From an uncultured bacterium (GTDB taxonomy: Bacteria; Fermentibacterota; Fermentibacteria; Fermentibacterales; JCC-6), in assembly GCA_964553045.1 (NCBI GenBank), contig CAZKJG010000016.1, forward strand, positions 494 to 64,493: a stretch of 64,000 nt of DNA. Reading direction: 5' to 3'. Below the pieces are notes generated by a model. It was not told the origin of the DNA, made no database searches, and worked only from the letters and a program-made list of their open reading frames with translations. The translations under genes and the position numbers were made by a program. Below, in pieces: positions 36,255 to 62,442 of the stretch (position 1 is its first letter; each line of letters opens with the position of its first letter).

Positions 36255-37181
36255 ATGGACGAAGAGAGGAAGAAGATCCTGGAGATGGTGGCCGATGGGA
36301 AGATATCGGCCGACGACGGGGCCAAGCTCCTGTCCGCCCTGGAGCAGGGCGGTGGCGAGGGCAGGCCGTCGGCAGGGAAAGGGTTCCACAGGTCCCCCCG
36401 GCATTCCCGGGGATTCGAGTCCGTGCTCTCGGCGCTCTCCGGCATAGGCCCGGCGGTGCGGAACGCCGTGGAGTCCGCCATGTCCACGTTCGACATCGAC
36501 TCGGGCGATTCCTTCGACACCGATGTATACGAGGACCTGGAAGTCTTAGACTATGCCGCCGGCGCCGTAGAGGTCCCCGAAGGGTGCAGGCTGGTCTTCC
36601 GGACCCGAAGGCGGGAGGGGGGTAACCTCGAGCTGCAGGGGCACGAAGAGAGCACACTGCTGGTGGACGGCGATACGGAGGGCCTGAAGGTGATGGGCGA
36701 CGGGGAGATGATCGTGGTCGTCTGGGGCGATGGCCTTCTGAAGGCCGGTGTCCCCGCTTCGGCCCCTGTGGAGGTAAGGACCACCGGCGGCGATGTCTGT
36801 GCCTCGGGCATGTCCCGTGAGCTCAGGGTGAAGACCCTGGGAGGCAGCATCACCATGGAGGACGTTCGGGGCGCCCTCTCGGCGAAGACCATGGGCGGCT
36901 CCATCGTGCTCAGCGCTTCCGGAGGGCTCTCCGGAGCCTGCGCCGCCAAGACCATGGGCGGGGACGTATCCGTCACGCTGCCCACGGGGGCGGTATCCTC
37001 GCTGAGCGCCAAGACCCTGGGAGGCGAGGTGAGCATCGACGAGTCCCTGGGCCGGGTGGACCTGCAGGGCGGCCCGGGCTCCAGCAGGGGGACCCTGAGC
37101 TGCGAGGGCGGCGCCGACTCTTCGCTCTCGGTGAAGACGCTGGGCGGAAACATATCCGTGGAAAGGCGAGAGGATGGATGA
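36255..37181 (+). CDS. DUF4097 (YvlB/LiaG-like) beta-strand repeat protein
   Basis: N-terminal helical module (MDEERKKILEMVADGKISADDGAKLLSAL) then repeated VKTLGGSI / AKTMGGSI / AKTLGGEV / VKTLGGNI beta-repeats. Confidence 0.7.
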   Translation: MDEERKKILEMVADGKISADDGAKLLSALEQGGGEGRPSAGKGFHRSPRHSRGFESVLSALSGIGPAVRNAVESAMSTFDIDSGDSFDTDVYEDLEVLDYAAGAVEVPEGCRLVFRTRRREGGNLELQGHEESTLLVDGDTEGLKVMGDGEMIVVVWGDGLLKAGVPASAPVEVRTTGGDVCASGMSRELRVKTLGGSITMEDVRGALSAKTMGGSIVLSASGGLSGACAAKTMGGDVSVTLPTGAVSSLSAKTLGGEVSIDESLGRVDLQGGPGSSRGTLSCEGGADSSLSVKTLGGNISVERREDG

Positions 37182-37539
37182 GAACAGGGTACCTCCGCGA
37201 TGCCCCTCCTGCGGGGCCGCCATGCGGGTGGTTCGAGTGGAGTGTCCGGTATGCGGAACGGAAGTGACCGGTGACTTCGAACTCTGTCCCGCGTGCAGGC
37301 TGGGCGACGACCACCGAAGGATCTTCGACGCCTTTCTGCGGGCCCGCGGCAACGTGCGTGCCGTGCAGGGTGAGCTGGGCGTTTCCTATCCGACCGCCAG
37401 ACAGCGGATAGAGGAGATGTTCAGCGTTCTGGAGAAGGGCCCGCCGAGACCGGATCCCATGGTGGTCCTGAAGAAGCTGGAGGCCGGGGAGATAGACGTG
37501 GGGGCCGCTGCGGAGCTGCTGGCCGGAGGTGGCGGCTAG
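37174..37539 (+). CDS. DUF2089-like zinc-ribbon/HTH protein
   Basis: CPSCG...CPVCG zinc ribbon, a second CPAC pair, then a helical HTH-like C-terminus. ATGGATGA overlap with the DUF4097 stop. Confidence 0.65.
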   Translation: MDENRVPPRCPSCGAAMRVVRVECPVCGTEVTGDFELCPACRLGDDHRRIFDAFLRARGNVRAVQGELGVSYPTARQRIEEMFSVLEKGPPRPDPMVVLKKLEAGEIDVGAAAELLAGGGG

Positions 37540-38652
37540 CTAGGGGCGGGCTTCCGCTTCCGCCATCCAGTGCTGCAGCCTCCGCAGGCCTTCGGCCGGC
37601 ACCCGGTGTCCGCCCCGGAAGTCGAACAGCGTAACATCGTAGTCGAAGGACTCCAGCAGCCGCTTGGCCTCCATGCCCGCCTCGAACTCCACCGAGCGGT
37701 CCTCGCGTCCGTGGATTATCAGCACGGGCAGGCGGCTGGCGGCCTCCAGGACCTCGTCCGACGTATATTCCCTGTCCAGCCAGCCGGCGTTCACCACCAG
37801 GCCGTCGAAGACGTCGGGGTTGTGCAGACCGATCTCGTAGGTGAAGCCCCCGCCCTGGGAATGGCCCATCAGGTACACGCCGGAGACGGAATAGCGCTCC
37901 CGCAGGCTGCTCACGACTTCCAGCACGTACTCCTCGGCGATCGGCGCAGCCCTGTCACAGGTTTCCGTTCCGGGCTCTCCGATCATCCAGCTGTAGCCGC
38001 GGAAGTCCACGCCCTCCATTTCGAACGGCGCCCGGGGGCAGGCGAAGATGAAGTCCGGGTCATCGAACTCCCGCCACAGCCCGGAGAAGTCGTCGGGATT
38101 GCTTCCGTAGCCGTGAAGGGCAACCAGCAGCGGCAGGCGGGCGGAGGAGTCGTAATCGGCCGGCACGTGCACACGGCATGGCAGCAGGGTCCTGGACTCC
38201 ATGTACAGAGGCGTACCCAGCTCCCTCCGCCGGGCCAGTATGTCCCGGGTCAGGGTGTCGATGGCGGCCATGAAGGCCGGGTGCTGGCGTACCGGATTCA
38301 GGTCCGGGTCCCGCTCGATGTGCCCCAGGTTCGAGAAGCCGGCCTCGACCGCCAGCGCCAGATAGCGTGCTGCCAGCTCGGCCTCGCCCAGAAGCCCGTA
38401 GCAGCAGGCGAGGTTGTAGATGTTGCCGGTATCGGACACGTCGTAGCGAAGGGCCGCCAGGTAGTAGCCGGCCGCCTCCTCGTAATCGCCTGAAAGGTAT
38501 GCTTCGAGGGCCTGCCTCTCCAGCCTGGGCAGATCCACCGAGAGGAAGTCCCCCTCACGGGAGGAGTAGGGGTCTATGTCGGATACGTTCACGACCTCGT
38601 AGGAGAAGACTGCCGCGGCGGCAATCATCATCGGCAGAACGCATGCCCTCAT
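37540..38652 (-). CDS. Secreted alpha/beta hydrolase (phospholipase/carboxylesterase-like) with N-terminal TPR region
   Basis: Signal peptide. TPR-like repeats (YYLAALRYD...LACCYGLLGE). GHSQGG nucleophile elbow, C-terminal HGREDR...GGH triad candidates. Confidence 0.7.
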   Translation of the reverse strand: MRACVLPMMIAAAAVFSYEVVNVSDIDPYSSREGDFLSVDLPRLERQALEAYLSGDYEEAAGYYLAALRYDVSDTGNIYNLACCYGLLGEAELAARYLALAVEAGFSNLGHIERDPDLNPVRQHPAFMAAIDTLTRDILARRRELGTPLYMESRTLLPCRVHVPADYDSSARLPLLVALHGYGSNPDDFSGLWREFDDPDFIFACPRAPFEMEGVDFRGYSWMIGEPGTETCDRAAPIAEEYVLEVVSSLRERYSVSGVYLMGHSQGGGFTYEIGLHNPDVFDGLVVNAGWLDREYTSDEVLEAASRLPVLIIHGREDRSVEFEAGMEAKRLLESFDYDVTLFDFRGGHRVPAEGLRRLQHWMAEAEARP

Positions 38653-38683
38653 CTCAGCCTCGGGGGCTCTCGACGGCCGCGAA

Positions 38684-40642
38684 TCAGCGGCCGCCCGTGA
38701 TTACCTCCAGAACCTCGGGGAAGTCAACTCCCAGCTCCTCGAGCTTCTCCCGCCCGGGTACGCCGTCTTCGCTCCATCCCCTAAGCCGGTAGAGGGCGTC
38801 GAGGAGTCGGTTGTAGCGGTCTTCCCTGTGCTTCCGCAGGGCCGAGACCTTCTCTTCTGCGGACATGGATTCGGGGTCCGTTCCTGCCTCTTCGCGAAGC
38901 TGGCTGTCGTACATGTCCCTTCGGGTCTCGTACTCGTCCTCGGTCACCGGGCCCTGGGCACGATAGGGAAGTGAATCGTGCTCCCTGGTACCGTAGCCCA
39001 TTCGCAGGTCGAAAACCCTCCGGAAGTTGTGAACCCTCTCGGACATCTCCAGGAGGCTGCCCGGAGTCTGGCCGCTGCCGGTAACGCCCTCGAAGAGGCC
39101 GCAGTAGCTGAGCACCCTTGCCGGGGCCTTTTCCGGATCAAGTGAGTTCCAGGGAAGGCCGCACAGGCCGCAGAGGCTGAACCAGCTGTTCCAGAGCTGA
39201 GAGCTGTGGAGGGCCTCGGCCAGTTCTTCGGGCCCGCGTGGGCCATCCTTCCCGACCCCGGTGAGCATCGGCCAGCGGCCATCCTGCAGGTCGCCACCTG
39301 CACCGGCGCCGAGGGCGGCCTGATGGACGAGCGATTCCCCGGTTGCGACCTGAGGCAGTTCCAGTCCCTTGCTCTCCATTCCGATGTCTTCCAGCAGCTC
39401 CCCATCGGCGTCGTAGTGCTCCTCGAAGTAGTACTTCATGAAGCGGATGCCCTTGCCCGCAATGCGTCCGAAGCCCCTGGACTCCGCCACGGCATGCAGC
39501 AGGGCGAGGGCGGCACCGTCGTTTCCGAATTCGAGCTTCAGGCCGTCGGTCTTCTCCGCGTCGAGTATGCCCTGCTCGAAGCACTCCATGACAAAGGCTG
39601 TCGAGGTGGCGAAGGAGATGGGATCGATTCCGTAGGTTCCGCAGTAGAAGCAGTACTCCATGACGAAGTCGGGATCGAAGATGCCCATGTTGGAGGCTCC
39701 GGCGACCACTCCGTAGTCCGGGCCCTCCACAGAGACGGGTTCCCCTGCGTAGGGGCCGGTCTGCGGCTCGAAGCCCGAGACCGACTTTCGGCAGGATAGC
39801 CCGCAACCCAGCCAGCAGGCGTCTGTACTTCCGGTGTCGAAGTATGGGGAGAGGGATTCTTCGTACAGGCACTTCGCGTCTTCGTGGCCGTATGCGCGGC
39901 AGTTGGCCACCGGAAGGAGGTTGGCTTCGCTCATGCTCTCGATGAGTCGGGCGGTTCCCGAACGTCGCAGACCTCCCTGAACGCCCCGGGAGAATACGAT
40001 ATCGCGTGTGATCTCCATACCGGCTCTGCGGATCGCGTCCGCGTCGCCGGGCGCACCGGGATGGTCGTGAAGGCTCAGGGCTTCGGTGGGGCAGACCTCC
40101 ACGCATATCCCGCAGCCGGTACAATACCCGTCATCCGGCCGGGGAATGCTCAGCCTGCGCTCGGAGCCGCTCCCGGCGAAGCTGATGACTTCCTGTCCGT
40201 TAAGCCGGCGACAGGCCTGGACGCAGAGACCGCAGAGAATGCAGGCCCTCGGGTTGCAGTCAGCCCCGCGAACTGCGGGGCGCGGCCGCTGTATTCCGTG
40301 GGAGCGCGCCATCTCGCGAATGGCCTCGACCTTTGGCCATCGGGCGTAGAGCAGCTCCAGCACATTCCTGCGGTGCGACACCACTCTTTCCGAGGAGGTA
40401 TCCACCTTCAGATCGCTGCGAACGGGGAAGGTGCAGGAGGCGACCAGCCGCCTGCCGCCGCCGTCATCCACCTCGACCATGCACAGCCGGCAGGCGCCGT
40501 AGGGCTCCGTCAGGGGGCTTCCGCAGAGCGCGGGTATTCCGACCCCGGCCATCTCCGCCGCCTCCATGACCGTGGTATCACGCGCCACCTCGACCACTTC
40601 GCCTTCCAGATCGACCTTGAACATCTCCCGATCACCCATCAT
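38684..40642 (-). CDS. Chimeric subunit: HydA/NuoG-like N-terminal Fe-S module ([2Fe-2S] plus 2x[4Fe-4S]) fused to AOR catalytic domains 2-3
   Basis: N-terminus: 2Fe-2S ferredoxin fold (CGSPLTEPYGACRLCMV), CILCGLCVQAC, CTGCGICVEVCP. C-terminus: AOR-family motifs CWLGCGLSC ([4Fe-4S] ligands) and GIDPISFATSTAFVMECFEQGIL (the AOR D.IS.G..A.AMEL.E.G pterin-domain motif). ATGATGA start/stop overlap with the upstream gene. Confidence 0.8.
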   Translation of the reverse strand: MMGDREMFKVDLEGEVVEVARDTTVMEAAEMAGVGIPALCGSPLTEPYGACRLCMVEVDDGGGRRLVASCTFPVRSDLKVDTSSERVVSHRRNVLELLYARWPKVEAIREMARSHGIQRPRPAVRGADCNPRACILCGLCVQACRRLNGQEVISFAGSGSERRLSIPRPDDGYCTGCGICVEVCPTEALSLHDHPGAPGDADAIRRAGMEITRDIVFSRGVQGGLRRSGTARLIESMSEANLLPVANCRAYGHEDAKCLYEESLSPYFDTGSTDACWLGCGLSCRKSVSGFEPQTGPYAGEPVSVEGPDYGVVAGASNMGIFDPDFVMEYCFYCGTYGIDPISFATSTAFVMECFEQGILDAEKTDGLKLEFGNDGAALALLHAVAESRGFGRIAGKGIRFMKYYFEEHYDADGELLEDIGMESKGLELPQVATGESLVHQAALGAGAGGDLQDGRWPMLTGVGKDGPRGPEELAEALHSSQLWNSWFSLCGLCGLPWNSLDPEKAPARVLSYCGLFEGVTGSGQTPGSLLEMSERVHNFRRVFDLRMGYGTREHDSLPYRAQGPVTEDEYETRRDMYDSQLREEAGTDPESMSAEEKVSALRKHREDRYNRLLDALYRLRGWSEDGVPGREKLEELGVDFPEVLEVITGGR

Positions 40643-42483
40643 CGAACCTCCACGGCCTCGAAGCTGCACACATCCCTGCACATGCCGCAGCGGATACATG
40701 TTCGATCGTCTATTCGGTGGGTCTCGCCGGGCTCACCCGAGATCGCACCCACGGGGCAGACCTCGGCACAGGCCGTGCATCCCGTGCACTTTCCCTTGTC
40801 GATGCTGAACCGGATCAGCTCCGGACATTCAGCCGCCGGGCACCTGCTCTCCTCGATGTGGGCCGAGTACTCCTGGGGGAAGTTTCGGATGGTGCTCAGT
40901 ACCGGGCCTGCCGCCCGCTGTCCCAGGCCGCATATGCTGCACTCGGCCATAGTGTCTCCCAGCTCCTGCAGAAGACCTGTGTCCTCCCTGGAGCCCTCCC
41001 CCCGGATGATCCGTCCCATTACCTCCGACATGGCCGCCAGCCCCTCTCTGCAGGGGACGCACTTGCCGCAGGACTCCTCCAGCAGAAGGTCGATGCAGTA
41101 GCGGGCGTAACGGACCATGCAGGTGTCCTGGTCGATCACCGTGAGCATACCCGAGCCCATGGACACGCCGGCATCTGCCAGCGCGTCGAATTCCAGGGGC
41201 AGGTCGAGGTCGCTCTCGGGAATCAGCACGCCGGAGGGACCTCCCAGCTGCGCCGCCTTGAAGCCGGCGCTGTCCGGCGGGCCGCCGCCGATATCGAAGA
41301 TCACTTCCCTGAGCGTGATGCCCATCGGCACTTCCACCAGCCCGGTGGCGGCAACGCTTCCCGACAGCCCGAGCACCTTGGTGCCGGAGGAGTTTTCGGC
41401 GCCCTTGGAGGCGAACCACTCGGGGCCCCTTGCGATGATGGAGGGCACGCACGCCAGGGTCTCGACGTTGTTCAGAACCGTCGGCCTGCCCAGAAGGCCT
41501 TTCTCGAAGGAGGGGACATAAAGGTCATGGGCCTCGGGCGGAAGCCCGGCAAGTGCGGCCATGAGCGCCGAGGACTCGCCGCAGACGAAGGCCCCCTCGC
41601 CCCTGTGCAGATCGACATGGAAATCGAAGCCCGTACCGAGTATGTCCTCTCCCAGCAGCCCCCGGTCAGCCGCCTGCTCGATGGCCCGGCCGAGCCTCTT
41701 CAGTGCAAGGGGATACTCACGTCTGGTGTAGATGTATCCCCGTCTGGCTCCCGTGGCATAAGCGGCGATGAGCATCCCCTCGAGGATCGAATGGGGATCC
41801 GACTCGACGATCCTGGCGTCCTTGAACCCCCCCGGGTCGCTGTCTTCTGCGTTGCAGACCAGGAGGGGCTCTTCACCCGCGCTCCCGGCGGCCTCCCTGC
41901 AGCTGCGCCATTTCGCGCCCGTATGGGCTCCCCCTCCGCTCCTGCCGCGCAGCCCAGAGCTCACCACGGCTTCGACTACCTCTTCGGGCTTCATCTTGTC
42001 CAGTACCTCTGCCAGGGCACCGTATCCCCCTGCTCCCAGATAGTCGTCCATGCTCTCGGGGTCGGTCTGAGTGCGGTTCTGCAGGACGACCAGCTCCTGT
42101 TTTCCGAAGAATGGCACATCCTCGACGCGGGGACATATCTTGTCGCCGCTGCGGTACATCAGCCTCTCCACCGGCTTGCCGTCCTCGAGGTGCTGGGCGA
42201 TTATGTCCGCGAGGTCGTCGCCGCCCACCCTGGTGTAGAGGATGCCGTCGGGCTGCACAAGCACCAGCGGCCCCTCTGCACAGAAACCCAGGCATCCGCT
42301 CCGTACGACCAGGTACTCCTCGGAGAGGTCCCTCTTGATGAACTCGCCCACCAGCCTGTCGTAGAGGCCCGAAGACTGCCGGGCCCCGCAGCCGGTCCCG
42401 GTGCAGACCAGGATGGTCTTCCTGTAGTCCTGGCGCCTCCTGCGGGCCCTTTCCTGCAGATCCTTCAGCTCCTCAAGCGTCAT
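40639..42483 (-). CDS. HydB/HoxF/NuoF-like NAD(P)H-binding flavoprotein with N-terminal thioredoxin-like [2Fe-2S] and C-terminal 2x[4Fe-4S]
   Basis: GAGGYGA NAD/FMN region, FVCGESSALMAAL, ESCGKCVPCREG (N3 cluster). N-terminal CTGTGC...CLGFC. C-terminal CTGCTACAEVCP and CIRCGMCRDVC. Confidence 0.85.
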   Translation of the reverse strand: MTLEELKDLQERARRRRQDYRKTILVCTGTGCGARQSSGLYDRLVGEFIKRDLSEEYLVVRSGCLGFCAEGPLVLVQPDGILYTRVGGDDLADIIAQHLEDGKPVERLMYRSGDKICPRVEDVPFFGKQELVVLQNRTQTDPESMDDYLGAGGYGALAEVLDKMKPEEVVEAVVSSGLRGRSGGGAHTGAKWRSCREAAGSAGEEPLLVCNAEDSDPGGFKDARIVESDPHSILEGMLIAAYATGARRGYIYTRREYPLALKRLGRAIEQAADRGLLGEDILGTGFDFHVDLHRGEGAFVCGESSALMAALAGLPPEAHDLYVPSFEKGLLGRPTVLNNVETLACVPSIIARGPEWFASKGAENSSGTKVLGLSGSVAATGLVEVPMGITLREVIFDIGGGPPDSAGFKAAQLGGPSGVLIPESDLDLPLEFDALADAGVSMGSGMLTVIDQDTCMVRYARYCIDLLLEESCGKCVPCREGLAAMSEVMGRIIRGEGSREDTGLLQELGDTMAECSICGLGQRAAGPVLSTIRNFPQEYSAHIEESRCPAAECPELIRFSIDKGKCTGCTACAEVCPVGAISGEPGETHRIDDRTCIRCGMCRDVCSFEAVEVR

Positions 42484-42499: not shown

Positions 42500-42964
42500 C
42501 TATTCGAAACGCGCCAGGAGGTCGCCGACCTCCGATGGTCTCACAGTACCCACAACCTCGCCGTTTACGGCTACGGCGGGGGCCAGTCCGCAGCAGCCCA
42601 GGCATCTCACCCGTTCCAGCGAGAACCTGCCGTCTTCGGTGGTCTCCCCCTCCTCAATGCCCAATTCCCTCTCCAGAGCCGACATCAGCCTGGGGGCGCC
42701 CTTCAGAAAGCAGGCGGCGCCCATGCAGACCTGGATATTCCTCTCCCCCCGGGGCTTCAGGCTGAAGCCCGAGAAAAAGGTAGCCAGATGGAAGAGCCTT
42801 CCCCGGGGTACGCCGATCAGCAGAGCCAATCTTCCCAGGGCCTGCTCGGGTATGTACCTGTAGATCTCCTGGACGTCCTGCAGCATCTCGGTGGCGTACT
42901 CGGGGTCGCGGTTCCATCTCTGCACAATGCGGTCGATTCTCTCCAGGGCATCCACCCTAATCAC
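42500..42964 (-). CDS. HydC/HoxE/NuoE-like thioredoxin-like [2Fe-2S] subunit
   Basis: CMGACFLKG...CLGCCGLAP cluster motifs. GTG start inferred near 42955-42964 at the AOR-N stop; plus or minus 9 nt uncertain. Confidence 0.7.
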   Translation of the reverse strand: MIRVDALERIDRIVQRWNRDPEYATEMLQDVQEIYRYIPEQALGRLALLIGVPRGRLFHLATFFSGFSLKPRGERNIQVCMGAACFLKGAPRLMSALERELGIEEGETTEDGRFSLERVRCLGCCGLAPAVAVNGEVVGTVRPSEVGDLLARFE

Positions 42965-43793
42965 CACCCTCGTCGCAAGGATCGCCGCCACAGGGGATTT
43001 CCTCCTCCAGGACCAGCTTGGAACATGCGGCAGGGGCCTTGACCACAAGGGCCTTAAGGCCCTTGCGCCGAAACACCGAGCCGGCTCCCCCCCGGCCACC
43101 CTGGAAGGTCCGTATCGTCCTCCCCCGGGGGTCCCACCATGAGAGGCCGAGTGAGCCGATCCAGCTGTTCTCTGCACCCCTGCCGGCGGTGACAGTGGAG
43201 AGCAGCCTGCGATCTTCGTCCTCCCCGGAGTACATCTCGAAGAGCTCACGCACCGCCAGGTGGGTGTCCGTGGAGAGTAGCGGGCTCTCTTCCAAGGTTA
43301 CCCGGCCCTCGGTGCCGTCAATTCTCACGATGACGTCCGTTTCCGCCTTGCCCACCAGCACCAGCCCGTCGAAGCCGGCGAACTTCAGCAGGGGTCCGAA
43401 ATGGCCGCCGGCGCTGGAATCCACGACCGCCCCGGTAGTGGGTGATATTGTCGCAATGGAGGAGTATCCCGCACCGGGAAACAGCGCCGTGCCTCCGAGG
43501 GGCCCGGATGATATGCATATGGGATTCCCGTCGCTGTCCCACTTTGTCTTCGGAGTGGTCTCCTGCCAGGCCATGAGGAGGTTGAATCCCCTGCCTCCGA
43601 CGAAGAGGTCCTTCATGCTCTCGGTTACGGGAACTGTCCTGAAGGAGGGCTCGGATACGTTCACTCTGAGTATCTCGCCCGTGTAGCCCTTCGCGGCCCC
43701 TCTGGGATCGTAGGAGAACTCCGCCAGGACCTTCTGAGCCTTCAGAATATCCCGGGCTGTCCGCTTCTCGGCCATGCGCATCCCCCGGTTCAT
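42957..43793 (-). CDS. AOR N-terminal domain (domain 1) as a stand-alone protein
   Basis: Collinear with the AOR N-domain: GYTGEILRVNVSE, GGRGFNLLM, GPLGGTALFPGAGYSSIATISPTTG, GGHFGPLLKFAGFDGLVLVGKAE, VTAGRGAENS. Ends after about 210-240 aa, without domains 2-3. Confidence 0.8.
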   Translation of the reverse strand: MNRGMRMAEKRTARDILKAQKVLAEFSYDPRGAAKGYTGEILRVNVSEPSFRTVPVTESMKDLFVGGRGFNLLMAWQETTPKTKWDSDGNPICISSGPLGGTALFPGAGYSSIATISPTTGAVVDSSAGGHFGPLLKFAGFDGLVLVGKAETDVIVRIDGTEGRVTLEESPLLSTDTHLAVRELFEMYSGEDEDRRLLSTVTAGRGAENSWIGSLGLSWWDPRGRTIRTFQGGRGGAGSVFRRKGLKALVVKAPAACSKLVLEEEIPCGGDPCDEGGD

Positions 43794-44038
43794 CTGGAGC
43801 TGACGGCTTGTTTCTGCCGGCTCATCGCCAATTGCCAGTGTATTACTCTACCCACTGAGCCGGTTATGGACAATACCCATCCAACTCTTTTTCACTGAAA
43901 GATGGACGGTTAGGCTCACATTCGGAAGGGTTTGTCCGTCGAAGCCGGGACGATCCTGTCCAGGGGAGGCTTGACTTGATAAATGGCCGTCACAATCCTT
44001 ACCCTGAGAGTGTGTATTTCCATGGGGAAGGAGGATAC

Positions 44039-45052
44039 ATGAGAGCTTTGCTTCTTCTTGCGCTGGTTCCGGCCATAGCCTTTGGGGCGAGCGTGGTCAA
44101 GACGATAGATGCCCCCGATAGCGGCATCGCCGGCCTCGCCTGGGGCTCGGGAAGCCTGTGGGCGTCGGACGGAGGCACCGGCAACGTGTACGAGCTGGAC
44201 CCCGCTGACGGAACGGTTCTCAGCTCGTTCTACTGCGACAACGGAACACCCGGGGGGCTGGCTCACATGTCCGGCGACCTCCACGTGCTCAACTCCGAGT
44301 CGGGCACCTACGTCGGCTACGTCTACAAGTACTCCGAGGGAGGGTCCTACCAGGGCGCATACGACACGACCTGTTGAGGCAGCGCCCTCTACCAGTCGGT
44401 GACTGGTATAGCTTCCGACAACACATCTTACACCTACGTCCTTGGAGACGGCTACTACGACGACCCCGTCGTCGAGTACTTCAACAGCAGCGGCAACGTG
44501 GGAACCTCTCCCTACATGCAGGACATGCCGGCCCTGTCCTCGCACTACGACATAGCCTACGAGGGCGGCGACGGCGACGGCGACATATGGGTCGCCTGCG
44601 ACGCGGCCGACAGTCCCATAAGATCATACGACACCGACGCTCAGATGGTTGCCTGGGTGTCCGGGGGCGATCTGCCCTCCGGCGCGCAGATTCGGGGATT
44701 GACCTTCGATACCAACGGATACCTCTGGGCCAGCGACTACAACGCCCAGAAGATCTACCAGATCGATCTGACCAGCGGCGCCGCCGAGGGAGTCAGCTCG
44801 ACGGTAGGAGGCATGGCCCTTTCCGTTTCCAGCAACCCGTTCTTCGGTTCGGTCACCCTCAGCCTCAGTGGCGTGGAGGGGACCGCCGAGCTGGCCGTCT
44901 TCGACCTCGCCGGCAGAACGGTTGCCCGGGAGCGGATCGGGAGCGGCTCTTCGATTGCCTGGAACGGGGAAGGAGTGCCCAGCGGCACCTACCTTGTCCG
45001 CGCCACCACCGAAGACGGTGTCTCGGCCACCAGGCTGGTCACCAAGCTCTAG
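44039..45052 (+). pseudogene. Secreted beta-propeller-like (NHL/SGL-like) protein with T9SS CTD, interrupted by an in-frame TGA
   Basis: ATG at 44039 after GGAAGGAGG. Signal peptide MRALLLLALVPAIAFG. In-frame TGA at 44375-44377 (YDTTC*GSALYQ) joins two same-frame ORFs. C-terminal SSNPFFGSVTLSL...LAVFDLAGRTV...GTYLVRATT CTD. Confidence 0.5.
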
Positions 45053-45077
45053 GCAAGAGAGCATCAGTGCAGTGAAG

Positions 45078-45200: not shown

Positions 45201-45890
45201 TCAGGCCCGTACCTGTACCTCTTCCACATAGGGCTCCACGGCCCGCGCGGTCTCCTCCAGATACCCCTTTGGATAGGGGGGGAGGTCGCGGTAGGCGTCC
45301 GACAGGGTCTTGCCGCCGCGGAATCTCTGAAGGACGTAGCGCTGGAAGGGGCCGTGCGTTCGAAGTATTCGCTCCACGCCCTCCTTGTCCACGATGCCGG
45401 GAACCATGGTGGTTCGGATCTCGTAGGCCGGAAGTGCCCTGATCATCTCCAGGCTCTCCACGACATCATCGAATCGGGCGTGACCTCCGGTGGCTTTCCC
45501 GTAGGCTCCCGGCGCGGCCTTGAGGTCCATCGCCACGTAGTCGACCAGGTCCAGGACCTCCCGGAGCCTCTTCGGCAGGGTACCGTTCGTGTCCAGCTTC
45601 ACCGGAAGGCCGGTTTCCCTGCGCACGCTGAGAATGAAATCGGACAGGCCGGGGCTGAGAAGGGGCTCACCGCCGGTTATGGAGACTCCCTCTATGAAGC
45701 CATCCCGGGCCTTGAGGCGGTCGAGGACGATGTCGGCCGACAGGGTGTACTGGTCCGCCAGGAGGTCGGGACGCACCAGCTCGGGGTTGTGGCAGAAGGG
45801 GCAGTAGAGGTTGCAGCCACCGAAGAAGACCACCGAGGCTATCTTGCCGGGGTACTCTATGAGGCTGGTTCCCTCGAAGGAGCGGATCAA
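45201..45890 (-). CDS. nrdG: Anaerobic ribonucleoside-triphosphate reductase activating protein (radical SAM)
   Basis: CNLYCPFCHN radical-SAM motif close to the N-terminus, typical NrdG size. Non-ATG start, exact start uncertain. Confidence 0.8.
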   Translation of the reverse strand: MIRSFEGTSLIEYPGKIASVVFFGGCNLYCPFCHNPELVRPDLLADQYTLSADIVLDRLKARDGFIEGVSITGGEPLLSPGLSDFILSVRRETGLPVKLDTNGTLPKRLREVLDLVDYVAMDLKAAPGAYGKATGGHARFDDVVESLEMIRALPAYEIRTTMVPGIVDKEGVERILRTHGPFQRYVLQRFRGGKTLSDAYRDLPPYPKGYLEETARAVEPYVEEVQVRA

Positions 45891-46072
45891 CTCCCGGATT
45901 CCTGCGCGGAGCCGATGCTCACGTACTCGCGCTGCTCGAACTCTTCGCGCTTGCCGCGGTTCCAGTCCTGCACCGGACGGTAGTAGCCCACTACCCTGGA
46001 GTAGACCTCGGTCCTTACGGCTTTGATCCTGGTTCCCCTGTCGATTCCCTCTTCCGAGCGCGCGTCTGCCAT
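45887..46072 (-). CDS. Small protein carrying an NrdD-type glycyl-radical motif (RVVGYYRPV...WNRGK)
   Basis: 61-aa ORF MADARSEEGIDRGTRIKAVRTEVYSRVVGYYRPVQDWNRGKREEFEQREY.... ATG one nt after the nrdD TGA, with GGAG/AGGTG upstream. Stop overlaps the nrdG start. Confidence 0.55.
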   Translation of the reverse strand: MADARSEEGIDRGTRIKAVRTEVYSRVVGYYRPVQDWNRGKREEFEQREYVSIGSAQESGS

Positions 46073-46073
46073 T

Positions 46074-48191
46074 TCAGATCTCCACCTTTCCAACCTCCAG
46101 AGAGAGGCTCCTCTGGTTGGAGCTCTCCCCGCTCTCGTGCATGACCCTGTAACTCCCCTCCTGTAGGAGGTCTCCGCCGTTCCAGACCATTTCCATGCCG
46201 TGCTTGGCTATCTCCTCGTCGGTGTGCGGGTAGGGACATACGAAGTGCTCGCCGGCTATGTAGCCGTGAACGGGGCATATGGAGAAAGTGGGAGTAAAGC
46301 TGAAGTAGGGAAGGCTGAAGTTCTCCACTACGGTTCTGGCCAGCTTTCGGACCATCTTCCAGTCCGTGATGGCCTCTCCTATGAACACGTGCACCACGGT
46401 CCCGCCGGTGAACTTGCCCTGCAGGGGGTCCTGATGGCCCAGAAGCTCGAACATGTCGGTCCTAACGTCCACCGGCAGATGGACGGAGTTGGTGTAGTAG
46501 CGGTTCGTGCCCCCCATCGCGGCAGCGTCCGGGAACCTTTCGAGGTCCTTTCGGGCCAGCCTGTAGGAGGCCCCTTCGGCCGGAGACGCCTCCAGGTTGT
46601 ACAGGTGGCCGCTCTCGTGCTGGAACTCCGTGAGCTTGTCGCGCATGAAGTCAAGGACCTCCAGAGCCCAGTCACGGGACCGGGAGTCCTCGATGCCCTG
46701 GCCTGTGAAGTTGATGCAGGCCTCGTTCATGCCGATGAGGCCGACGGTGGAAAAGTGGTTGGCCCAGTACGATCCCTGCTCGCTCTTGATGCTGCCCAGG
46801 TAGTGGCGCGTATAGGGGTAGAGTCCCCGGTCGGTCAGTTCCTCTATGAGCCCCCGCTTCAGCTCCAGCGACTCCCGCGCCGCCTCCATGACCGCGCTGA
46901 GCCGGTTGTAGAACTCGTCGTGGTTGCCGGCTGTGTAGGCTATCCTGGGCAGGTTTACGGTCACCACTCCGATGGAGCCGGTGAGCGGGTTCGACCCGAA
47001 AAGCCCGCCGCCGCGCTTTCGCAGCTCGCGGTTGTCCAGCCGAAGACGGCAGCACATGCTGCGGGCGTCGTCGGGGTCCATGTCCGAGCCCACGAAGTTG
47101 CTGAAGTAGGGGATGCCGTACTTGCCCGTCATCTCCCACATGGGGCGCAGCTCCTCGTTGTCCCAGTCGAAGTCCTCGGTAAGGTTGTAGGTGGGAATGG
47201 GGAACGTGAATATCCTCCCCTTCTCGTCACCCTCCATCATCAGGCGGGAGAATGCGCGGTTGAAGACGTTCATCTCCTCCTGGAAGTCGGCGTAGGTCAG
47301 CTCCCGCTCCCCGCCGCCCACCACCACTTTGCGTTCGGCCAGCGAAGGCGGGACCTTGAGGTCCATGGTGATGTTGGTGAACGGCGTCTGAAAGCCGACC
47401 CTCGTGGGGATGTTCACATTGAAGAGGAACTCCTGCAGACACTGCTTGACCTCGTTCTCGTTGAGGCGGTCGTAACGGATAAACGGGGCCAGCAGGGTAT
47501 CGAAGTTGGAGAACGCCTGGGCACCGGCCGCCTCCCCCTGCAGGGTGTAGAAGAAGTTCACTATCTGCCCCAGTGCCGTCCTGAGGTGCGAGGGAGGTGC
47601 CGACTCGATCTTGCCCCTGGCCCCCCGGAAGCCGTACCGAAGCAGCTCCATCAGGTCCCAGCCCACGCAGTAGGGGCCGAGTATGCCGAGGTCGTGTATG
47701 TGCATGTCGCCGTTGTCGTGGTACTCCTTTATGCGTGGTGTGTAGATCTTGCTCAGCCAGTACCTGGCCGTGATGGAGGAGGAGAGGTAGAAGTTCAGAC
47801 CCTGGAGGGAGTAGTTCATGTTGGAGTTCTCGTTTACCCTCCAGTCCTCCCGGCCGATGTAGTCGCCGACCAGGCCGTCGATTCCGCTGAATATCCGGTC
47901 GACCTCGCGGGCCTCGTTGCGCTTCTCGCGGTAGAGGATGAAGGCCCTGGCCGCGGCGGTCAGGCCCCGCAGCACAAGGGTCTCCTCGATGAAATCCTGT
48001 ATCTGCTCTACGGTGGGGACGGTGCCGCCCTTGAAGAATTCCATGTACAGTGCGGCCTCCACCTGGCCGGCCAGGTCCGCCGGGCTCTCTTCGCTCTCGC
48101 CGACCCTGAGGGCCTTCTCGATGGCCAGCTGGATCTTCCTCTTGCGGTAGGTGGCAATCCGTCCGTCACGCTTGCGTATCAACCAGTCCAT
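46074..48191 (-). CDS. nrdD: Anaerobic ribonucleoside-triphosphate reductase (class III) with ATP-cone, apparently lacking its C-terminal glycyl-radical motif
   Basis: N-terminal ATP-cone (IRKRDGRIATYRKRKIQLAIEKAL), class III RNR core, degenerate Zn site CPVH...CPYPH. The ORF ends without an RVxGY motif. Confidence 0.9.
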   Translation of the reverse strand: MDWLIRKRDGRIATYRKRKIQLAIEKALRVGESEESPADLAGQVEAALYMEFFKGGTVPTVEQIQDFIEETLVLRGLTAAARAFILYREKRNEAREVDRIFSGIDGLVGDYIGREDWRVNENSNMNYSLQGLNFYLSSSITARYWLSKIYTPRIKEYHDNGDMHIHDLGILGPYCVGWDLMELLRYGFRGARGKIESAPPSHLRTALGQIVNFFYTLQGEAAGAQAFSNFDTLLAPFIRYDRLNENEVKQCLQEFLFNVNIPTRVGFQTPFTNITMDLKVPPSLAERKVVVGGGERELTYADFQEEMNVFNRAFSRLMMEGDEKGRIFTFPIPTYNLTEDFDWDNEELRPMWEMTGKYGIPYFSNFVGSDMDPDDARSMCCRLRLDNRELRKRGGGLFGSNPLTGSIGVVTVNLPRIAYTAGNHDEFYNRLSAVMEAARESLELKRGLIEELTDRGLYPYTRHYLGSIKSEQGSYWANHFSTVGLIGMNEACINFTGQGIEDSRSRDWALEVLDFMRDKLTEFQHESGHLYNLEASPAEGASYRLARKDLERFPDAAAMGGTNRYYTNSVHLPVDVRTDMFELLGHQDPLQGKFTGGTVVHVFIGEAITDWKMVRKLARTVVENFSLPYFSFTPTFSICPVHGYIAGEHFVCPYPHTDEEIAKHGMEMVWNGGDLLQEGSYRVMHESGESSNQRSLSLEVGKVEI

Positions 48192-49524: not shown

Positions 49525-50592
49525 ATGGTGCTGGCAGCTGCTGCGGTTCTGGCGCTGGCGGTCGGGCCGGCTGCGCTGGAGTGCGAGATTCTGGACAGCG
49601 TTCGCGTGGACATGGGCTACGGAGCGGCCTTTCAGGTGCTGTGCCTGGGGGCCGGACCCACCGGCGGAGTGGCGGCAGGTGGCGTCACCGGCGAAGGCGT
49701 GGACTACATGAGCCGAGCCTTCACCGTGGGCCTCGGCTCCGGCTGGAACGTGCAGTGGAGCGGTATTGCCGAGGGGGTGAACTCGGGCTGGATCTCCTCG
49801 GTAAGCCCCTCCTGGGACGGCGGATGCATCTGCGGCGGGGCCACAGACTACTCGCCCGGTGACCAGGGCGACGCCTGGGTGGTGGCTCTGGACCCCGGGG
49901 GGTTCGTCCGGTGGCAGCACCATCGTGAGGGCGAAAGCGAGCTTTCAGAGGTGTCGTGGGTGTCCGGGTCGCACATGCGCTCCCTGGCCGCAGGATACAC
50001 CCATGACCAGGCCGGAAGGCCCCGGTCATGGCTTCTGAGGCTGGACGACGCCGGCAGGGCCACCTCCAGAAGCGAAGTGGACCTGGACGGCTTCAAGGTG
50101 CTGGGCGCTTGCTCCACCTTCGCCGGAGAGACGGTGATGGTGGGCTCCCGCTACGGAGCGGCCGCCGCGGTGATGGTGGACGGCGAGGGCGGGACGGCAT
50201 GGACCGACCCCGCCATCGTGGAGGGGGCCCTGGGGACCGTGGAGGAGTGCGAGGGAGGATTGCTGTCCGGTGGCCACGCCTACGCAGACGGCGGCGACCC
50301 GCTGCTCTGCCTTCACTCCCGGCTGGGGGGCAGCCGATGGGTACGCAACCTCGCCGAGGACGGTTACTCGGGCAGCGTATTGGACCTGGCGCCCATTCCC
50401 GGAATTGGCAGCGCGCTGGTCATTGCCGGTTCTCCGCGTCTGGTCGTATGCGATCTGCAGGGCAAGCCCCTGGGAGAGGTTGATCCGGGCTTCCGTCCGT
50501 CGGCGGTGGCCGCCCTGGAGGACGGCACCCTGGCGGTTGCCGGCAGCGGCATGGGCGAGGTGCGACTGGCGCGGCTGCGCATCACCCGGTAA
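49525..50592 (+). CDS. Hypothetical secreted protein
   Basis: Signal peptide (AAAVLALAVGPAALE). Gly/Ser-rich, no known domain recognised. GGAGGAGGGAGAGG SD. Confidence 0.5.
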   Translation: MVLAAAAVLALAVGPAALECEILDSVRVDMGYGAAFQVLCLGAGPTGGVAAGGVTGEGVDYMSRAFTVGLGSGWNVQWSGIAEGVNSGWISSVSPSWDGGCICGGATDYSPGDQGDAWVVALDPGGFVRWQHHREGESELSEVSWVSGSHMRSLAAGYTHDQAGRPRSWLLRLDDAGRATSRSEVDLDGFKVLGACSTFAGETVMVGSRYGAAAAVMVDGEGGTAWTDPAIVEGALGTVEECEGGLLSGGHAYADGGDPLLCLHSRLGGSRWVRNLAEDGYSGSVLDLAPIPGIGSALVIAGSPRLVVCDLQGKPLGEVDPGFRPSAVAALEDGTLAVAGSGMGEVRLARLRITR

Positions 50593-50628
50593 AAAGGGGA
50601 CGGAGGTCTCGCCCTCCGCCCCGCCTGT

Positions 50629-51126
50629 CTACACGAGGTCGAGGAGCCACCGCTTCAGCAGGCTTCCGGCCAGCGTCAGAATCCCCGCCGCCCCCATCAC
50701 AACCACAACCGTGGCCACGTCCCACGGGTTCAGCAGGAAGGCCATGGCCAGCCCGGACGCGGGGGGGTGCTCGGTGTCGGTGACGGTCATGACGAAAAGC
50801 GATACGGCCACAGCTGCCGCCCCGGCCACCGCCCTCCAGACGGTCCATTCGGTCCCGCAGGAGGTGAGGGCGGAGACCGTGAGCATACTGAGGATGCCGC
50901 AGGCGGCGCCCACGGCGTAGCCCCCCAGGACTGCCCTGGGCGCCGCGGAGTAGGAGTTCGGGGCGGCGAAGACGATGAAGGCGCTGGCCCCCAGGGAGGC
51001 GATGATGGCCGTCTGCTGCACCGTGTCCAGGAGCATGAGGACCACGAATATCACGGCTCCCGCGGCCAGGCTCTGCCAGATGTACCGGAACACGTGATGG
51101 CGCAGGCCCGTGTCCAGGAATCTCAT
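50629..51126 (-). CDS. HPP family membrane protein
   Basis: Four-TMS profile with HPP motif. The long 5' extension of the ORF-track entry is GC-frame artefact. ATG at 51126 overlaps the M16 stop (ATGA). Confidence 0.65.
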   Translation of the reverse strand: MRFLDTGLRHHVFRYIWQSLAAGAVIFVVLMLLDTVQQTAIIASLGASAFIVFAAPNSYSAAPRAVLGGYAVGAACGILSMLTVSALTSCGTEWTVWRAVAGAAAVAVSLFVMTVTDTEHPPASGLAMAFLLNPWDVATVVVVMGAAGILTLAGSLLKRWLLDLV

Positions 51127-62388: not shown

Positions 62389-62442
62389 TTTGACAGGCGT
62401 CAAGGACCGGGTAGTCCAATGCGCCCGGGGAAGTGTCCATGC

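What the first reader, a model, noticed from the sequence alone, without database searches (positions are those of the whole stretch)
42957..43793. AOR N-terminal domain encoded as an independent gene
The gene matches only domain 1 of the AOR fold (about 210 aa of collinear similarity), then terminates. Its stop overlaps the next gene's start. In all characterised AOR-family enzymes domain 1 is covalently continuous with domains 2-3. A genetically split AOR implies assembly in trans. The gene order AOR-N, HydC-like, HydB-like, chimera rules out a simple frameshift between AOR-N and AOR-C.
Basis: partly seen in the sequence, partly recalled or inferred. Interest (0 to 1): 0.7.

Follow-up and report, generated by a model that had tools for sequence, protein, structure and literature searches.

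The report
Split tungsten-type oxidoreductase, decaying here
The gene really does encode only the first domain of an aldehyde-oxidoreductase-type enzyme. It belongs to a widespread four-gene electron-bifurcation-type complex that I found described nowhere in the searchable literature, in which that enzyme is split in two; in this organism's lineage both catalytic sites appear to have decayed.

Summary
ORF 42957-43793 (-) encodes a complete, stand-alone AOR domain 1: Pfam AFOR_N E=7e-42, and an AF2 model (pLDDT 90) that matches only AOR chains. Its TAG stop overlaps the start of a NuoE/BfuC-like gene. A NuoF/BfuB-like gene follows, then a fusion of a WorA/BfuA-like FeS domain to AOR domains 2-3.

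The stop is not an error. Dozens of independent assemblies from several phyla carry the same gene order. AOR-N is free, fused to BfuC, or fused to BfuC-BfuB. The closest unsplit relatives are ~720-aa AORs at 44-49% identity. I read this as a new "Type 1" Wor-Bfu architecture; the published WOR and Bfu classifications do not cover it.

This window's copy is atypical. Its clade lacks the flanking ThiF and ThiS genes that the positional orthologue has. It keeps only 1 of the 4 conserved AOR active-site residues. It deviates at 42 of 150 near-invariant AOR-C columns, with different replacements in different members. The FMN/NAD loop of BfuB is also altered. All FeS cysteines are kept, and dN/dS is 0.13-0.47. 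The complex here is probably no longer a canonical aldehyde oxidiser.

The parts
42957..43775 (-). AOR-N: free-standing AOR/WOR domain 1. It is 272 aa from ATG 43775; an alternative upstream ATG at 43793 gives 278 aa.
   Evidence: Pfam AFOR_N E=6.8e-42. PDB phmmer hit to 1aor_A residues 3-127 at E=7.6e-18. AF2 pLDDT 89.9 and Foldseek hits to AOR chains only. Identical 272-aa protein in two public assemblies.
42500..42964 (-). BfuC (NuoE/HydC-like [2Fe-2S] subunit). The GTG start overlaps the AOR-N stop by 8 nt; alternative GTG starts lie at 42967 and 42955.
   Evidence: Pfam 2Fe-2S_thioredx E=9.5e-42. Best PDB hits are the HydC, WorC and NfnC subunits of bifurcating enzymes at 1e-33 to 5e-38. 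Sequence reading. In other lineages this protein is fused to AOR-N.
40639..42483 (-). BfuB (NuoF/HydB-like). It has an N-terminal [2Fe-2S] domain, an FMN/NAD module, an N3-type [4Fe-4S] cluster and a C-terminal 2x[4Fe-4S] domain. The FMN/NAD loop is atypical: RGRSGGGAHTG, and PEAHDLY in place of GEPRxKY.
   Evidence: Pfam. PDB hits 7t2r_B 3.7e-185, 8a6t_B and 9mqx_B 5.8e-176. Motif alignments. 40 of 230 family-invariant columns are changed, none of them a Cys.
38684..40642 (-). BfuA_N::AOR-C chimera. The N-terminal ~215 aa resemble WorA and carry a [2Fe-2S] and two [4Fe-4S] motifs. They are fused to AOR domains 2-3. The start is ATG 40642 or 40639, overlapping the BfuB TGA stop.
   Evidence: Pfam Fer2_4, Fer4 and AFOR_C (E=1.5e-70). 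PDB hit 9mqx_A (WorA) at 2.4e-32. Foldseek: 9mqx_A 197 columns at rmsd 2.7 A, AOR chains 457-532 columns. pLDDT below 50 for residues 1-23 supports the later start. Start context.
43776..43975 (.). Intergenic region upstream of AOR-N. In the positional orthologue L092 a ThiF (MoeB-like) gene sits here; it is absent in this clade.
   Evidence: Gene maps of L092 against L089, L090 and L094. No ThiF-like sequence in the window (tblastn).
38653..38683 (.). Short spacer between the chimera and the alpha/beta-hydrolase gene. In the orthologous locus L092 a ThiS (MoaD-like) gene sits here; it is absent in this clade.

Best explanation
The gene is a real, separately translated subunit. It encodes domain 1 of an AOR/WOR-type tungstopterin oxidoreductase whose domains 2-3 are fused to the C-terminus of a WorA/BfuA-like FeS domain three genes downstream. 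Together with BfuC and BfuB, the four translationally coupled genes encode a 'Type 1' Bfu-family complex. In canonical members, AOR-N and AOR-C are inferred to reassemble around the pterin cofactor. Electrons would then pass from the AOR [4Fe-4S] cluster through BfuA clusters A4, A2 and A1 to the BfuBC flavin core, which would reduce NAD+ and ferredoxin. This step is inferred by analogy with WorABCSL. The gene order equals an AOR gene interrupted at the domain 1/2 linker by a BfuC-BfuB-BfuA_N cassette. In this window's lineage the complex has been remodelled. The flanking ThiF and ThiS genes are gone. Three of the four conserved AOR active-site residues are replaced, as are the Arg76-equivalent Lys, the pterin-motif Asp and the FMN/NAD loop of BfuB, and the replacements differ between clade members. 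All FeS ligands and the folds are kept, and the genes remain under purifying selection. My reading is that the complex here no longer catalyses canonical W-dependent aldehyde oxidation coupled to NAD+. It persists as a relaxed or repurposed FeS protein complex.
For: The split is real and conserved. 78 of the best 120 homologue clusters are AFOR_N-only, 35 are AFOR_N+NuoE fusions and 7 also carry AFOR_C. The same gene order occurs in Fermentibacteraceae and Aegiribacteria MAGs and in MAGs labelled Myxococcales, Deltaproteobacteria, Bacillota, Sumerlaeota, Krumholzibacteriota, Bdellovibrionales and Syntrophomonadaceae, with three fusion states. Unsplit ~720-aa relatives at 44-49% identity are followed by ThiS. 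The best PDB match of the chimera's N-terminal part is WorA 9mqx_A, and BfuB and BfuC match bifurcating enzymes best. Canonical loci are flanked by ThiF, ThiS, MoaA, MoaC and MoeA. Decay in this clade: the chimera deviates at 42 of 150 near-invariant columns, against 0-6 in canonical members (one distant unsplit member, P0158, deviates at 19). In a second alignment the counts are 84/262 for the chimera, 18/84 for AOR-N, 40/230 for BfuB and 6/41 for BfuC, with no Cys lost. Of the 42 columns changed in at least 3 of the 4 clade members, only 3 share the same new residue. In PfAOR numbering, T243 is kept while E313 is G, Y427 is V and H448 is Q (the residue list is from PMC13328260). The block at residues 441-530 is 83-92% identical among canonical members but 46-64% identical within the clade, and it has lower pLDDT. 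BfuB motifs are altered differently in L089, L090 and L094. The positional orthologue L092 has the same flanks plus ThiF and ThiS, which this clade lacks. dN/dS within the clade is 0.13-0.47, against 0.12-0.20 for a canonical pair.
Against: No biochemical data exist for any member, split or unsplit. Trans-assembly and bifurcation are inferred from homology and gene fusions, not shown. Changed active-site residues could reflect new chemistry rather than loss; BamB also departs from the AOR catalytic residues (from my own knowledge). dN/dS well below 1 and intact ORFs in at least three species show that the genes still do something. Only 64 kb of the genome is visible, so pterin-cofactor genes or a second canonical operon may lie elsewhere. 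Loss of adjacent ThiF and ThiS does not prove loss of the cofactor. Some BfuB substitutions (for example AEDSDPG for ADEGDPG) are conservative, so NAD(H) binding may survive.
Confidence: 0.7

Rival explanations
1. The window encodes a fully active split, electron-bifurcating aldehyde (or related) oxidoreductase. AOR-N and the chimera assemble around tungstopterin as in canonical relatives, and the substitutions only retune substrate or nucleotide specificity.
For: All four ORFs are intact and translationally coupled. dN/dS is 0.13-0.47. All FeS cysteines, T243 and many fold-defining residues are kept. The models are confident.
Against: Three of the four residues conserved in aldehyde-oxidising WORs are replaced, by different residues in different clade members. 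The Arg76-equivalent Lys and the pterin-motif Asp are lost. ThiF and ThiS are deleted from an otherwise syntenic locus. The most conserved block of the family is the least conserved block in this clade.
Confidence: 0.15
2. Neofunctionalisation: the AOR shell and the BfuB flavin site have been adapted to a different cofactor, substrate or partner, for example a purely FeS-based electron relay or a sensor. The complex would then be a new functional type.
For: Purifying selection persists. The FeS chain is intact from AOR-C to BfuB. The locus is retained in at least three species.
Against: The replaced positions are not conserved within the clade: only 3 of 42 share a residue. That pattern is what relaxation gives, not a new active site. 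No new conserved motif or added domain was seen.
Confidence: 0.13
3. Artefact or pseudogene: the stop at 42957-42959 is a sequencing or assembly error, or AOR-N is a fragment of a once full-length AOR broken by a frameshift.
For: None was found beyond the general possibility of error in metagenome assemblies.
Against: The DNA after the stop encodes NuoE, not AFOR_C. The same stop-delimited protein occurs in many independent assemblies and phyla. AFOR_C lies 2.3 kb away, fused in frame to a BfuA domain. The breakpoint coincides with the domain 1/2 linker of unsplit homologues.
Confidence: 0.02

Closest known systems
WorABCSL (Wor-Bfu) of Acetomicrobium mobile, PDB 9MQX (Schut 2021; Feng 2025, PMC12318220)
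   Same: Both pair a BfuABC-type core with an AOR/WOR-type pterin catalytic module. The chimera's N-terminal domain is most similar to WorA: phmmer 2.4e-32, and Foldseek 38% identity at rmsd 2.7 A. From my reading of the sequence, it shares WorA's cluster complement (2Fe-2S plus two 4Fe-4S, with no A3-type H-x3-C-x2-C-x5-C motif). BfuB and BfuC match WorB and WorC at 5.8e-176 and 7.7e-36.
   Different: There is no WorS polyferredoxin and no full-length WorL. WorL is split: domains 2-3 replace WorA's Zn-finger and C-terminal helix, and domain 1 is a separate gene, or is fused to BfuC or BfuC-BfuB elsewhere. A 1:1 catalytic-to-core stoichiometry is implied rather than 3:1. The AOR part belongs to a different, ~720-aa subfamily with a C-x3-C-x3-C cluster motif.
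Type 1 Bfu enzymes (HydABC [FeFe]-hydrogenase, Nfn-Bfu, Fdh-Bfu, F420-Bfu; Schut 2022, PMC9304861)
   Same: The catalytic domain is fused C-terminally to the BfuA N-terminal FeS domain, and a three-gene BfuABC-like core is present.
   Different: The fused catalytic module is only two-thirds of its fold; the remaining third is on another polypeptide. An AOR-type module is not among the Type 1 enzymes named in the passages of that paper I read. Wor-Bfu is classed there as Type 2, with separate S and L subunits.
Monomeric AOR (P. furiosus AOR, 1AOR) and the unsplit ~720-aa AOR subfamily (Chloroflexota, Bipolaricaulota, Bathyarchaeia, Desulfobacterales, Bacteroidales MAGs)
   Same: The fold is the same (domain 1 plus domains 2-3). 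C291, C295 and C494 are kept; C288 is replaced, with an extra Cys downstream. A ThiS neighbour is shared. Canonical split members keep T243, E313, Y427 and H448.
   Different: Here the fold is split across two genes separated by two others. This window's copy keeps only T243 of the four residues and lacks the Arg76-equivalent Lys and the Asp338-equivalent residue.
Class II benzoyl-CoA reductase BamB-I
   Same: An AOR-family W subunit sits in one gene cluster with NuoEFG-like (BamGHI) subunits. BamB also departs from the aldehyde-type active-site residues (from my own knowledge).
   Different: BamB is a single full-length chain (4z3w_A, 653 aa). Bam has Hdr-like subunits that are absent here. 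No aryl-CoA context is present.

Membership tests
AOR/WOR family (WorL) | N-terminal domain 1 fold (AFOR_N / IPR013983) | tested here: met
   Pfam E=6.8e-42. Foldseek returns only AOR chains, TMq 0.65-0.69.
AOR/WOR family (WorL) | Domains 2-3 (AFOR_C / IPR001203) on the same polypeptide as domain 1; the 2026 WOR classification selects WorL by both domains in one protein | tested here: not met
   AFOR_N and AFOR_C lie on different ORFs 2.3 kb apart. Selection criterion from PMC13328260 section 5.
AOR/WOR family (WorL) | [4Fe-4S] ligands (PfAOR C288, C291, C295, C494) | tested here: inconclusive
   C291, C295 and C494 equivalents are kept. C288 is Thr, and an extra Cys lies four residues after C295, giving C-x3-C-x3-C. 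This pattern is invariant across the whole subfamily.
AOR/WOR family (aldehyde-oxidising members) | Conserved residues Thr243, Glu313, Tyr427 and His448 (PfAOR numbering) | tested here: not met
   The window has T, G, V and Q. Clade relatives have R/R/R, C/C/Y and R/Q/N at the last three positions. Canonical split and unsplit relatives have T, E, Y and H.
AOR/WOR family | Pterin and Mg contacts from domain 1 (Arg76 equivalent, Asn93) and the D-x-x-G-L-D motif (Asp338) | tested here: not met
   The family Lys (Arg76 equivalent) is Tyr here. Asn93 is Ser. Asp338 is Gly.
AOR/WOR family | Bound W (or Mo) bis-pyranopterin cofactor | not testable with these tools
   Only indirect evidence: ThiF, ThiS and Moa genes flank canonical loci but are absent from this locus and this window.
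BfuABC electron-bifurcating family | BfuB with an N-terminal [2Fe-2S], an N3-type [4Fe-4S] and a C-terminal 2x[4Fe-4S] domain | tested here: met
   Pfam domains. Full-length alignment to 7t2r_B with all Cys motifs aligned. No Cys is lost among the invariant columns.
BfuABC electron-bifurcating family | Canonical FMN/NAD(H) site in BfuB (RGRGGAGFPTG loop; G-x-P-R-x-K segment) | tested here: inconclusive
   The window has RGRSGGGAHTG and PEAHDLY. L090 and L094 differ again. Canonical relatives have RGRGG(A/G)GFP(T/A)G and GEPRAKY. Whether binding survives cannot be judged from sequence.
BfuABC electron-bifurcating family | BfuC [2Fe-2S] subunit, and a BfuA N-terminal domain with A1 [2Fe-2S] plus A2 and A4 [4Fe-4S] | tested here: met
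   Pfam. PDB hits to HydC and WorC and WorA. Cys motifs read directly from the translation.
BfuABC electron-bifurcating family | Demonstrated bifurcation: simultaneous NAD+ and ferredoxin reduction | not testable with these tools
   No member of this architecture has been characterised in the literature searched.
WorABCSL-type (bifurcating WOR with separate WorS and WorL) | Separate WorS polyferredoxin and full-length WorL, and WorA ending in a Zn finger plus C-terminal helix | tested here: not met
   No WorS or WorL gene is in the operon. The WorA-like domain continues into AFOR_C.
YdhV-type AOR (NCBIfam NF007354) | Score above the model cut-off (868 bits) | tested here: not met
   81-108 bits, over domain 1 only, for the window protein, the unsplit relatives P0154 and P0158, and the fused relative P0085.

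The most novel reading that the evidence does not exclude
A widespread class of Bfu-type complexes remains undescribed. It occurs in MAGs labelled Fermentibacteraceae, Aegiribacteria, Elusimicrobia, Aminicenantes, Myxococcales, Krumholzibacteriota, Sumerlaeota, Bacillota and others. In it a tungstopterin AOR has been cut at its domain 1/2 linker and stitched onto the bifurcating core, with domain 1 joined to BfuC or BfuC-BfuB and domains 2-3 joined to BfuA. The active site would therefore form only when the complex assembles. This window would capture a lineage in which that machine has shed its pterin and perhaps its flavin/NAD chemistry, yet is kept as an FeS-only complex with a new role.
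Probability: 0.35. Interest if true: 0.75.

Novelty: new variant of a known kind. Interest (0 to 1): 0.62.

Why it matters
Every characterised AOR/WOR enzyme carries the pterin site in one chain. A conserved natural split, with the two pieces fused to different subunits of an electron-bifurcating core, would be a new way of wiring a tungsten enzyme directly into flavin-based bifurcation, without a WorS 'nanowire'. It would make active-site formation depend on complex assembly. The current WOR classification selects proteins that hold both domains, so it excludes these enzymes by design and the diversity of W enzymes in uncultured anaerobes is probably undercounted. The decayed copy in this window, set beside its intact positional orthologue, is a natural before-and-after pair for studying how a multi-cofactor complex loses its catalytic sites while keeping its FeS chain. 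For genome annotation, the 'aldehyde:ferredoxin oxidoreductase' label on this gene should not be read as evidence of aldehyde metabolism in this organism.

Tried and rejected
1. Frameshift or sequencing error at the stop. Rejected: NuoE follows the stop, not AFOR_C, and the stop recurs in many independent assemblies.

2. Programmed frameshift making an AOR-N::BfuC fusion here, as in the fused lineages. From my reading of the sequence there is no slippery heptamer at GAGGGTGGTGATTAG. The junction geometry also differs between relatives: an 8-nt overlap in L001 against a 1-nt gap in L092.

3. A full-length AOR or cofactor genes elsewhere in the window. tblastn found none. The only MoaA hit is the radical-SAM NrdG.

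4. Membership of the YdhV family. The score is far below the cut-off.

5. Remnants of ThiF or ThiS in the two intergenic gaps. Nothing significant was found.

6. Literature on a split AOR. Searches on NuoE/NuoF + AOR + fused, BfuA + split, Pfam names, Fermentibacteria and Elusimicrobia gave no description. PMC8639347 is not held.

7. NJ tree of AOR-C. Split forms mostly group together, but three unsplit Bipolaricaulota sequences nest among them and the Planctomycetota two-gene variant L017 branches elsewhere. The tree is too crude to say whether the split arose once.

8. Naming the organism. Cluster look-ups carry no names. A Fermentibacteria/Aegiribacteria affiliation is inferred only from the closest named homologues.

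9. Whether the same genome also holds a canonical operon. This could not be tested; the one genome-collection scan did not return this genome.
Full report
**1. The observation.**
On the minus strand, ORF 42957-43793 (278 aa from the first ATG) is followed by three further ORFs: 42500-43249, 40639-42483 and 38684-40699. Pfam gives these assignments:
- AFOR_N only for the first ORF (E=6.8e-42; residues 39-252; profile positions 1-197 of 199).
- 2Fe-2S_thioredx for the second.
- Complex1_51K, NADH_4Fe-4S and 2xFer4, plus a weak N-terminal 2Fe-2S_thioredx match, for the third.
- Fer2_4, two 4Fe-4S motifs and AFOR_C (E=1.5e-70; residues 229-657) for the fourth.

The AOR-N stop is TAG at 42957-42959. 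In-frame GTG codons of the NuoE-like gene lie at 42967, 42964 and 42955. The 8-nt overlap, with the start at 42964, is the arrangement gene callers give in relatives. BfuB ends in a TGA that overlaps the chimera's ATG at 40642 or 40639, behind a GGAGG. The four genes are therefore tightly coupled.

The likelier AOR-N start is ATG 43775, giving 272 aa. That exact protein is called in two public assemblies.

An AF2 model of AOR-N has pLDDT 89.9 and pTM 0.87, with only the last ~22 residues uncertain.

**2. The stop is real and the arrangement is conserved.**
I searched AOR-N against 5.8 billion proteins. Of the best 120 clusters, 78 hold AFOR_N only (about 255-305 aa), 35 hold AFOR_N fused to the NuoE-type domain (~420-448 aa), and 7 also hold AFOR_C; several of those 7 are marked partial.

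Gene maps show the same order: AOR-N (with or without a BfuC fusion), BfuB, then BfuA_N::AOR-C. They come from NCBI MAGs of Fermentibacteraceae and from ENA assemblies. The operon is usually followed or flanked by ThiS, ThiF, MoaA, MoaC and MoeA/MoCF genes.

A scan of one genome per GTDB species found at least 595 loci encoding relatives of the AOR-C part. Among the 80 kept, 13 are chimeras. Their record titles name Aegiribacteria, Myxococcales, Myxococcota, Deltaproteobacteria, Bacillota, Sumerlaeota, Planctomycetota, Syntrophomonadaceae, Haliangium, Krumholzibacteriota and Bdellovibrionales. The other 67 are unsplit ~700-750-aa AORs from Chloroflexota, Bipolaricaulota, Bathyarchaeia, Bacteroidales, Desulfobacterales, Cloacimonadota and others.

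From stop-to-stop ORFs and BLAST coordinates, the fusion states are:
- AOR-N free: L001, L009-L012, L092 and the window.
- AOR-N::BfuC: L004, L013, L016.
- AOR-N::BfuC::BfuB: L015, L018, L020, L021.

One Planctomycetota contig (L017) has AOR-N directly followed by BfuA_N::AOR-C, with no BfuC or BfuB in the 7.4 kb available.

Unsplit relatives P0154, P0156 and P0158 share 36-46% identity with the AOR-C part. P0154 and P0158 are single genes followed by ThiS.

In alignments, AOR-N ends just after the last strand of domain 1 ('LKALVVK'; PfAOR about residue 205). The chimera's AOR part begins at the segment that follows in unsplit proteins. The gene order is therefore colinear with an AOR gene interrupted at the domain 1/2 linker by a BfuC-BfuB-BfuA_N cassette. 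A sequencing error or a simple frameshift is excluded.

**3. What the family most likely is.**
- The chimera's N-terminal ~215 aa are most similar to WorA of the A. mobile WorABCSL enzyme (9mqx_A: phmmer 2.4e-32; Foldseek 197 columns, 38% identity, rmsd 2.7 A).
- They carry one [2Fe-2S] and two CxxCxxCxxxC motifs. I read no H-x3-C-x2-C-x5-C (A3) motif in the translation. That is the cluster set reported for WorA.
- BfuB aligns end to end with the B subunits of structurally characterised bifurcating enzymes (7t2r_B 3.7e-185, 8a6t_B, 7q4v_B, 9mqx_B 5.8e-176), with all Cys motifs aligned.
- BfuC matches HydC, WorC and NfnC.

Schut et al. 2022 (PMC9304861) define Type 1 Bfu enzymes as those whose BfuA carries the catalytic domain. 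The Type 1 enzymes named in the passages I read are FeFe, Nfn, Fdh and F420. Wor-Bfu is placed in Type 2, with separate S and L subunits. The 2026 WOR classification selected WorL sequences by the presence of both InterPro domains in one protein, so split forms fall outside it. I found no description of a split AOR in the searchable literature.

My reading is that canonical members are a Type 1 Wor-Bfu with a split catalytic subunit. AOR-N and AOR-C would reassemble around the pterin. Electrons would pass from the AOR [4Fe-4S] through A4, A2 and A1 to the BfuBC core, which would reduce NAD+ and ferredoxin. The homology, synteny and fusions are shown. Trans-assembly, the cofactor and bifurcation are inferred.

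**4. This window's copy is atypical.**
Across 32 canonical sequences (28 chimeras and 4 unsplit AORs, 29-59% identical to the window protein), 150 columns are near-invariant. The window protein deviates at 42 of them. Its closest relatives P0122, P0123 and P0126 deviate at 51, 47 and 39. Canonical members deviate at 0-6, and one distant unsplit member at 19.

The affected motifs:

| Motif (PfAOR position) | Family | Window |
|---|---|---|
| Y312/E313 | VDGPEYET | VEGPDYGV |
| D338 | FYCDTYGIDTIS | FYCGTYGIDPIS |
| Y427 | EYSEYVTKESLAQQGGYG | ELPQVATGESLVHQAALG |
| H448 | KGxQHDEAWLIFMDM | GGDLQDGRWPMLTGV |

The 2026 classification names four residues as conserved in aldehyde-oxidising WORs: T243, E313, Y427 and H448. 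The window keeps only T243. Canonical split relatives keep all four.

AOR-N changes in step: the Arg76-equivalent Lys becomes Tyr, Asn93 becomes Ser, and KQAGRGG becomes FQGGRGG. The same positions are changed in P0002, P0004 and P0007 but not in P0003, P0005 or P0006, which are 66-70% identical to the window protein.

With a 12-locus canonical panel, the deviation counts are 84/262 for the chimera, 18/84 for AOR-N, 40/230 for BfuB and 6/41 for BfuC. No cysteine is lost.

Of the 42 AOR-C columns changed in at least 3 of the 4 clade members, only 3 carry the same new residue in all four. This is the signature of relaxed constraint rather than of a new conserved site.

The block at residues 441-530 is the most conserved part of canonical proteins (83-92% pairwise identity). 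It is among the least conserved in this clade (46-64%), and it has lower pLDDT in the model.

BfuB is affected too. The FMN/NAD loop RGRGG(A/G)GFP(T/A)G reads RGRSGGGAHTG in the window, RGRGGEGDPTG in L090 and RGRGGEGVPTA in L094. GEPRAKY reads PEAHDLY, PEAHDLY and AEPVDLY.

**5. Positional orthology and loss of cofactor genes.**
The canonical locus L092 holds P0006 and P0125, which are 66% and 57% identical to the window proteins. Its flanks are the same as the window's: a T9SS-tail protein, a 112-aa ORF, the operon, an alpha/beta-hydrolase and DUF2089. It also has ThiF immediately upstream of AOR-N and ThiS immediately downstream of the chimera.

In the window (identical to L089) and in L090, both genes are missing from otherwise identical surroundings. 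L094 also lacks the upstream ThiF, but its contig ends inside the chimera, so ThiS cannot be checked there. The gaps left in L089 are 263 bp and 55 bp. tblastn finds no remnant and no Moa, MoCF, ThiS or ThiF gene anywhere in the 64 kb.

The divergent clade is therefore an in-place descendant of a canonical operon, not a distant paralogue. Residue decay coincides with loss of the adjacent cofactor-maturation genes.

**6. It is not a dead pseudogene.**
All four ORFs are intact in L089 and L090. In L094 they are intact as far as the contig reaches, since it ends inside the chimera. NG86 dN/dS values are as follows:

| Gene | Within the clade | Canonical pair L092-L001 |
|---|---|---|
| AOR-N | 0.13-0.21 | 0.12 |
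| BfuC | 0.26-0.42 | 0.13 |
| BfuB | 0.24-0.31 | 0.17 |
| Chimera | 0.36-0.47 | 0.20 |

Flanking genes give 0.08-0.33 within the clade. Constraint on the chimera is roughly halved but still clearly present. All FeS ligands, T243 and 87 of the 150 invariant columns are retained in all four clade members.

I therefore commit to this reading: a real split-AOR subunit in a complex that, in this lineage, has lost canonical W-dependent aldehyde oxidation and probably normal NAD(H) chemistry, yet persists as an FeS protein complex under relaxed selection. My confidence is about 0.7.

The rivals are a retuned but active enzyme (about 0.15), true neofunctionalisation (about 0.13) and an artefact (about 0.02).

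**7. Limits.**
- No member of this architecture has been studied biochemically.
- Multimer modelling and coordinate analysis were not available.
- Only 64 kb of the genome is visible.
Affiliation with Fermentibacteria/Aegiribacteria is inferred from the nearest named homologues.
- The NJ tree is too coarse to decide how often the split arose.

**8. Verdict.**
It is incomplete about how common the arrangement is, and probably wrong if it is taken to mean an active AOR in this organism. I rate the novelty as a new variant of a known kind: a Bfu-family W-oxidoreductase with a split, fused catalytic subunit. Interest is 0.62.

Noticed in passing
window 45887-48191 (-): The anaerobic ribonucleotide reductase NrdD also appears to be split. 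The 705-aa ORF (46074-48191) matches only Pfam NRDD profile positions 1-530 of 562. A separate 61-aa ORF in another frame (45887-46072, starting 1 nt after the TGA) carries a sequence I take to be the glycyl-radical motif (TEVYSRVVGYYRPV). The same two-ORF layout is called in the related locus L090.
   Followed up: partly
L017 100-2882 (Planctomycetota MAG JBFZBV010000477.1): This is a two-gene variant of the split AOR. AOR-N (248 aa) is directly followed by BfuA_N::AOR-C, and no BfuC or BfuB lies in the 7.4-kb contig. Downstream genes are ketoacyl synthases. In the NJ tree it branches with unsplit Bathyarchaeia and Desulfobacterales sequences, so it may be an independent split or a secondary loss of BfuCB.
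   Followed up: partly
L015, L018, L020, L021 (loci): Single ORFs of about 900-1230 aa (stop to stop) hold AOR-N, BfuC and BfuB in one frame. This is a triple fusion upstream of BfuA_N::AOR-C. It was not checked against gene calls or for assembly errors.
   Followed up: no
L006 8192-12076: In one of three assemblies of the same population, BfuB and BfuA_N::AOR-C are called as a single 1294-aa gene, while L004 has two genes. This is probably an assembly indel.
   Followed up: no
window 79-195 (+): A complete 5S rRNA gene (Rfam RF00001, 104.5 bits) lies at the very start of the window, so an rRNA operon probably lies just upstream. ARAGORN finds no tRNA gene in the 64 kb.
   Followed up: no
window 43976-45075 (+) and 37174-38652: The operon sits between a small 112-aa ORF with a T9SS (Por_Secre_tail) protein on one side and an alpha/beta-hydrolase with a DUF2089 zinc-ribbon protein on the other. 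This neighbourhood is conserved in L090, L092 and L094, which is what allowed positional orthology to be established.
   Followed up: yes
P0147 (NCBI, 564 aa): This protein is annotated as an AOR C-terminal domain protein and carries FG-GAP/VCBS repeats plus AFOR_C, at 62% identity to the window chimera. It is marked partial in NCBI and may be a chimeric or misassembled gene model from this clade.
   Followed up: no
window 50001-54000: GC content rises to 0.67-0.70 here, against about 0.63-0.65 elsewhere. It falls to 0.59 in the last 2 kb (62001-64000). I did not examine this further.
   Followed up: no
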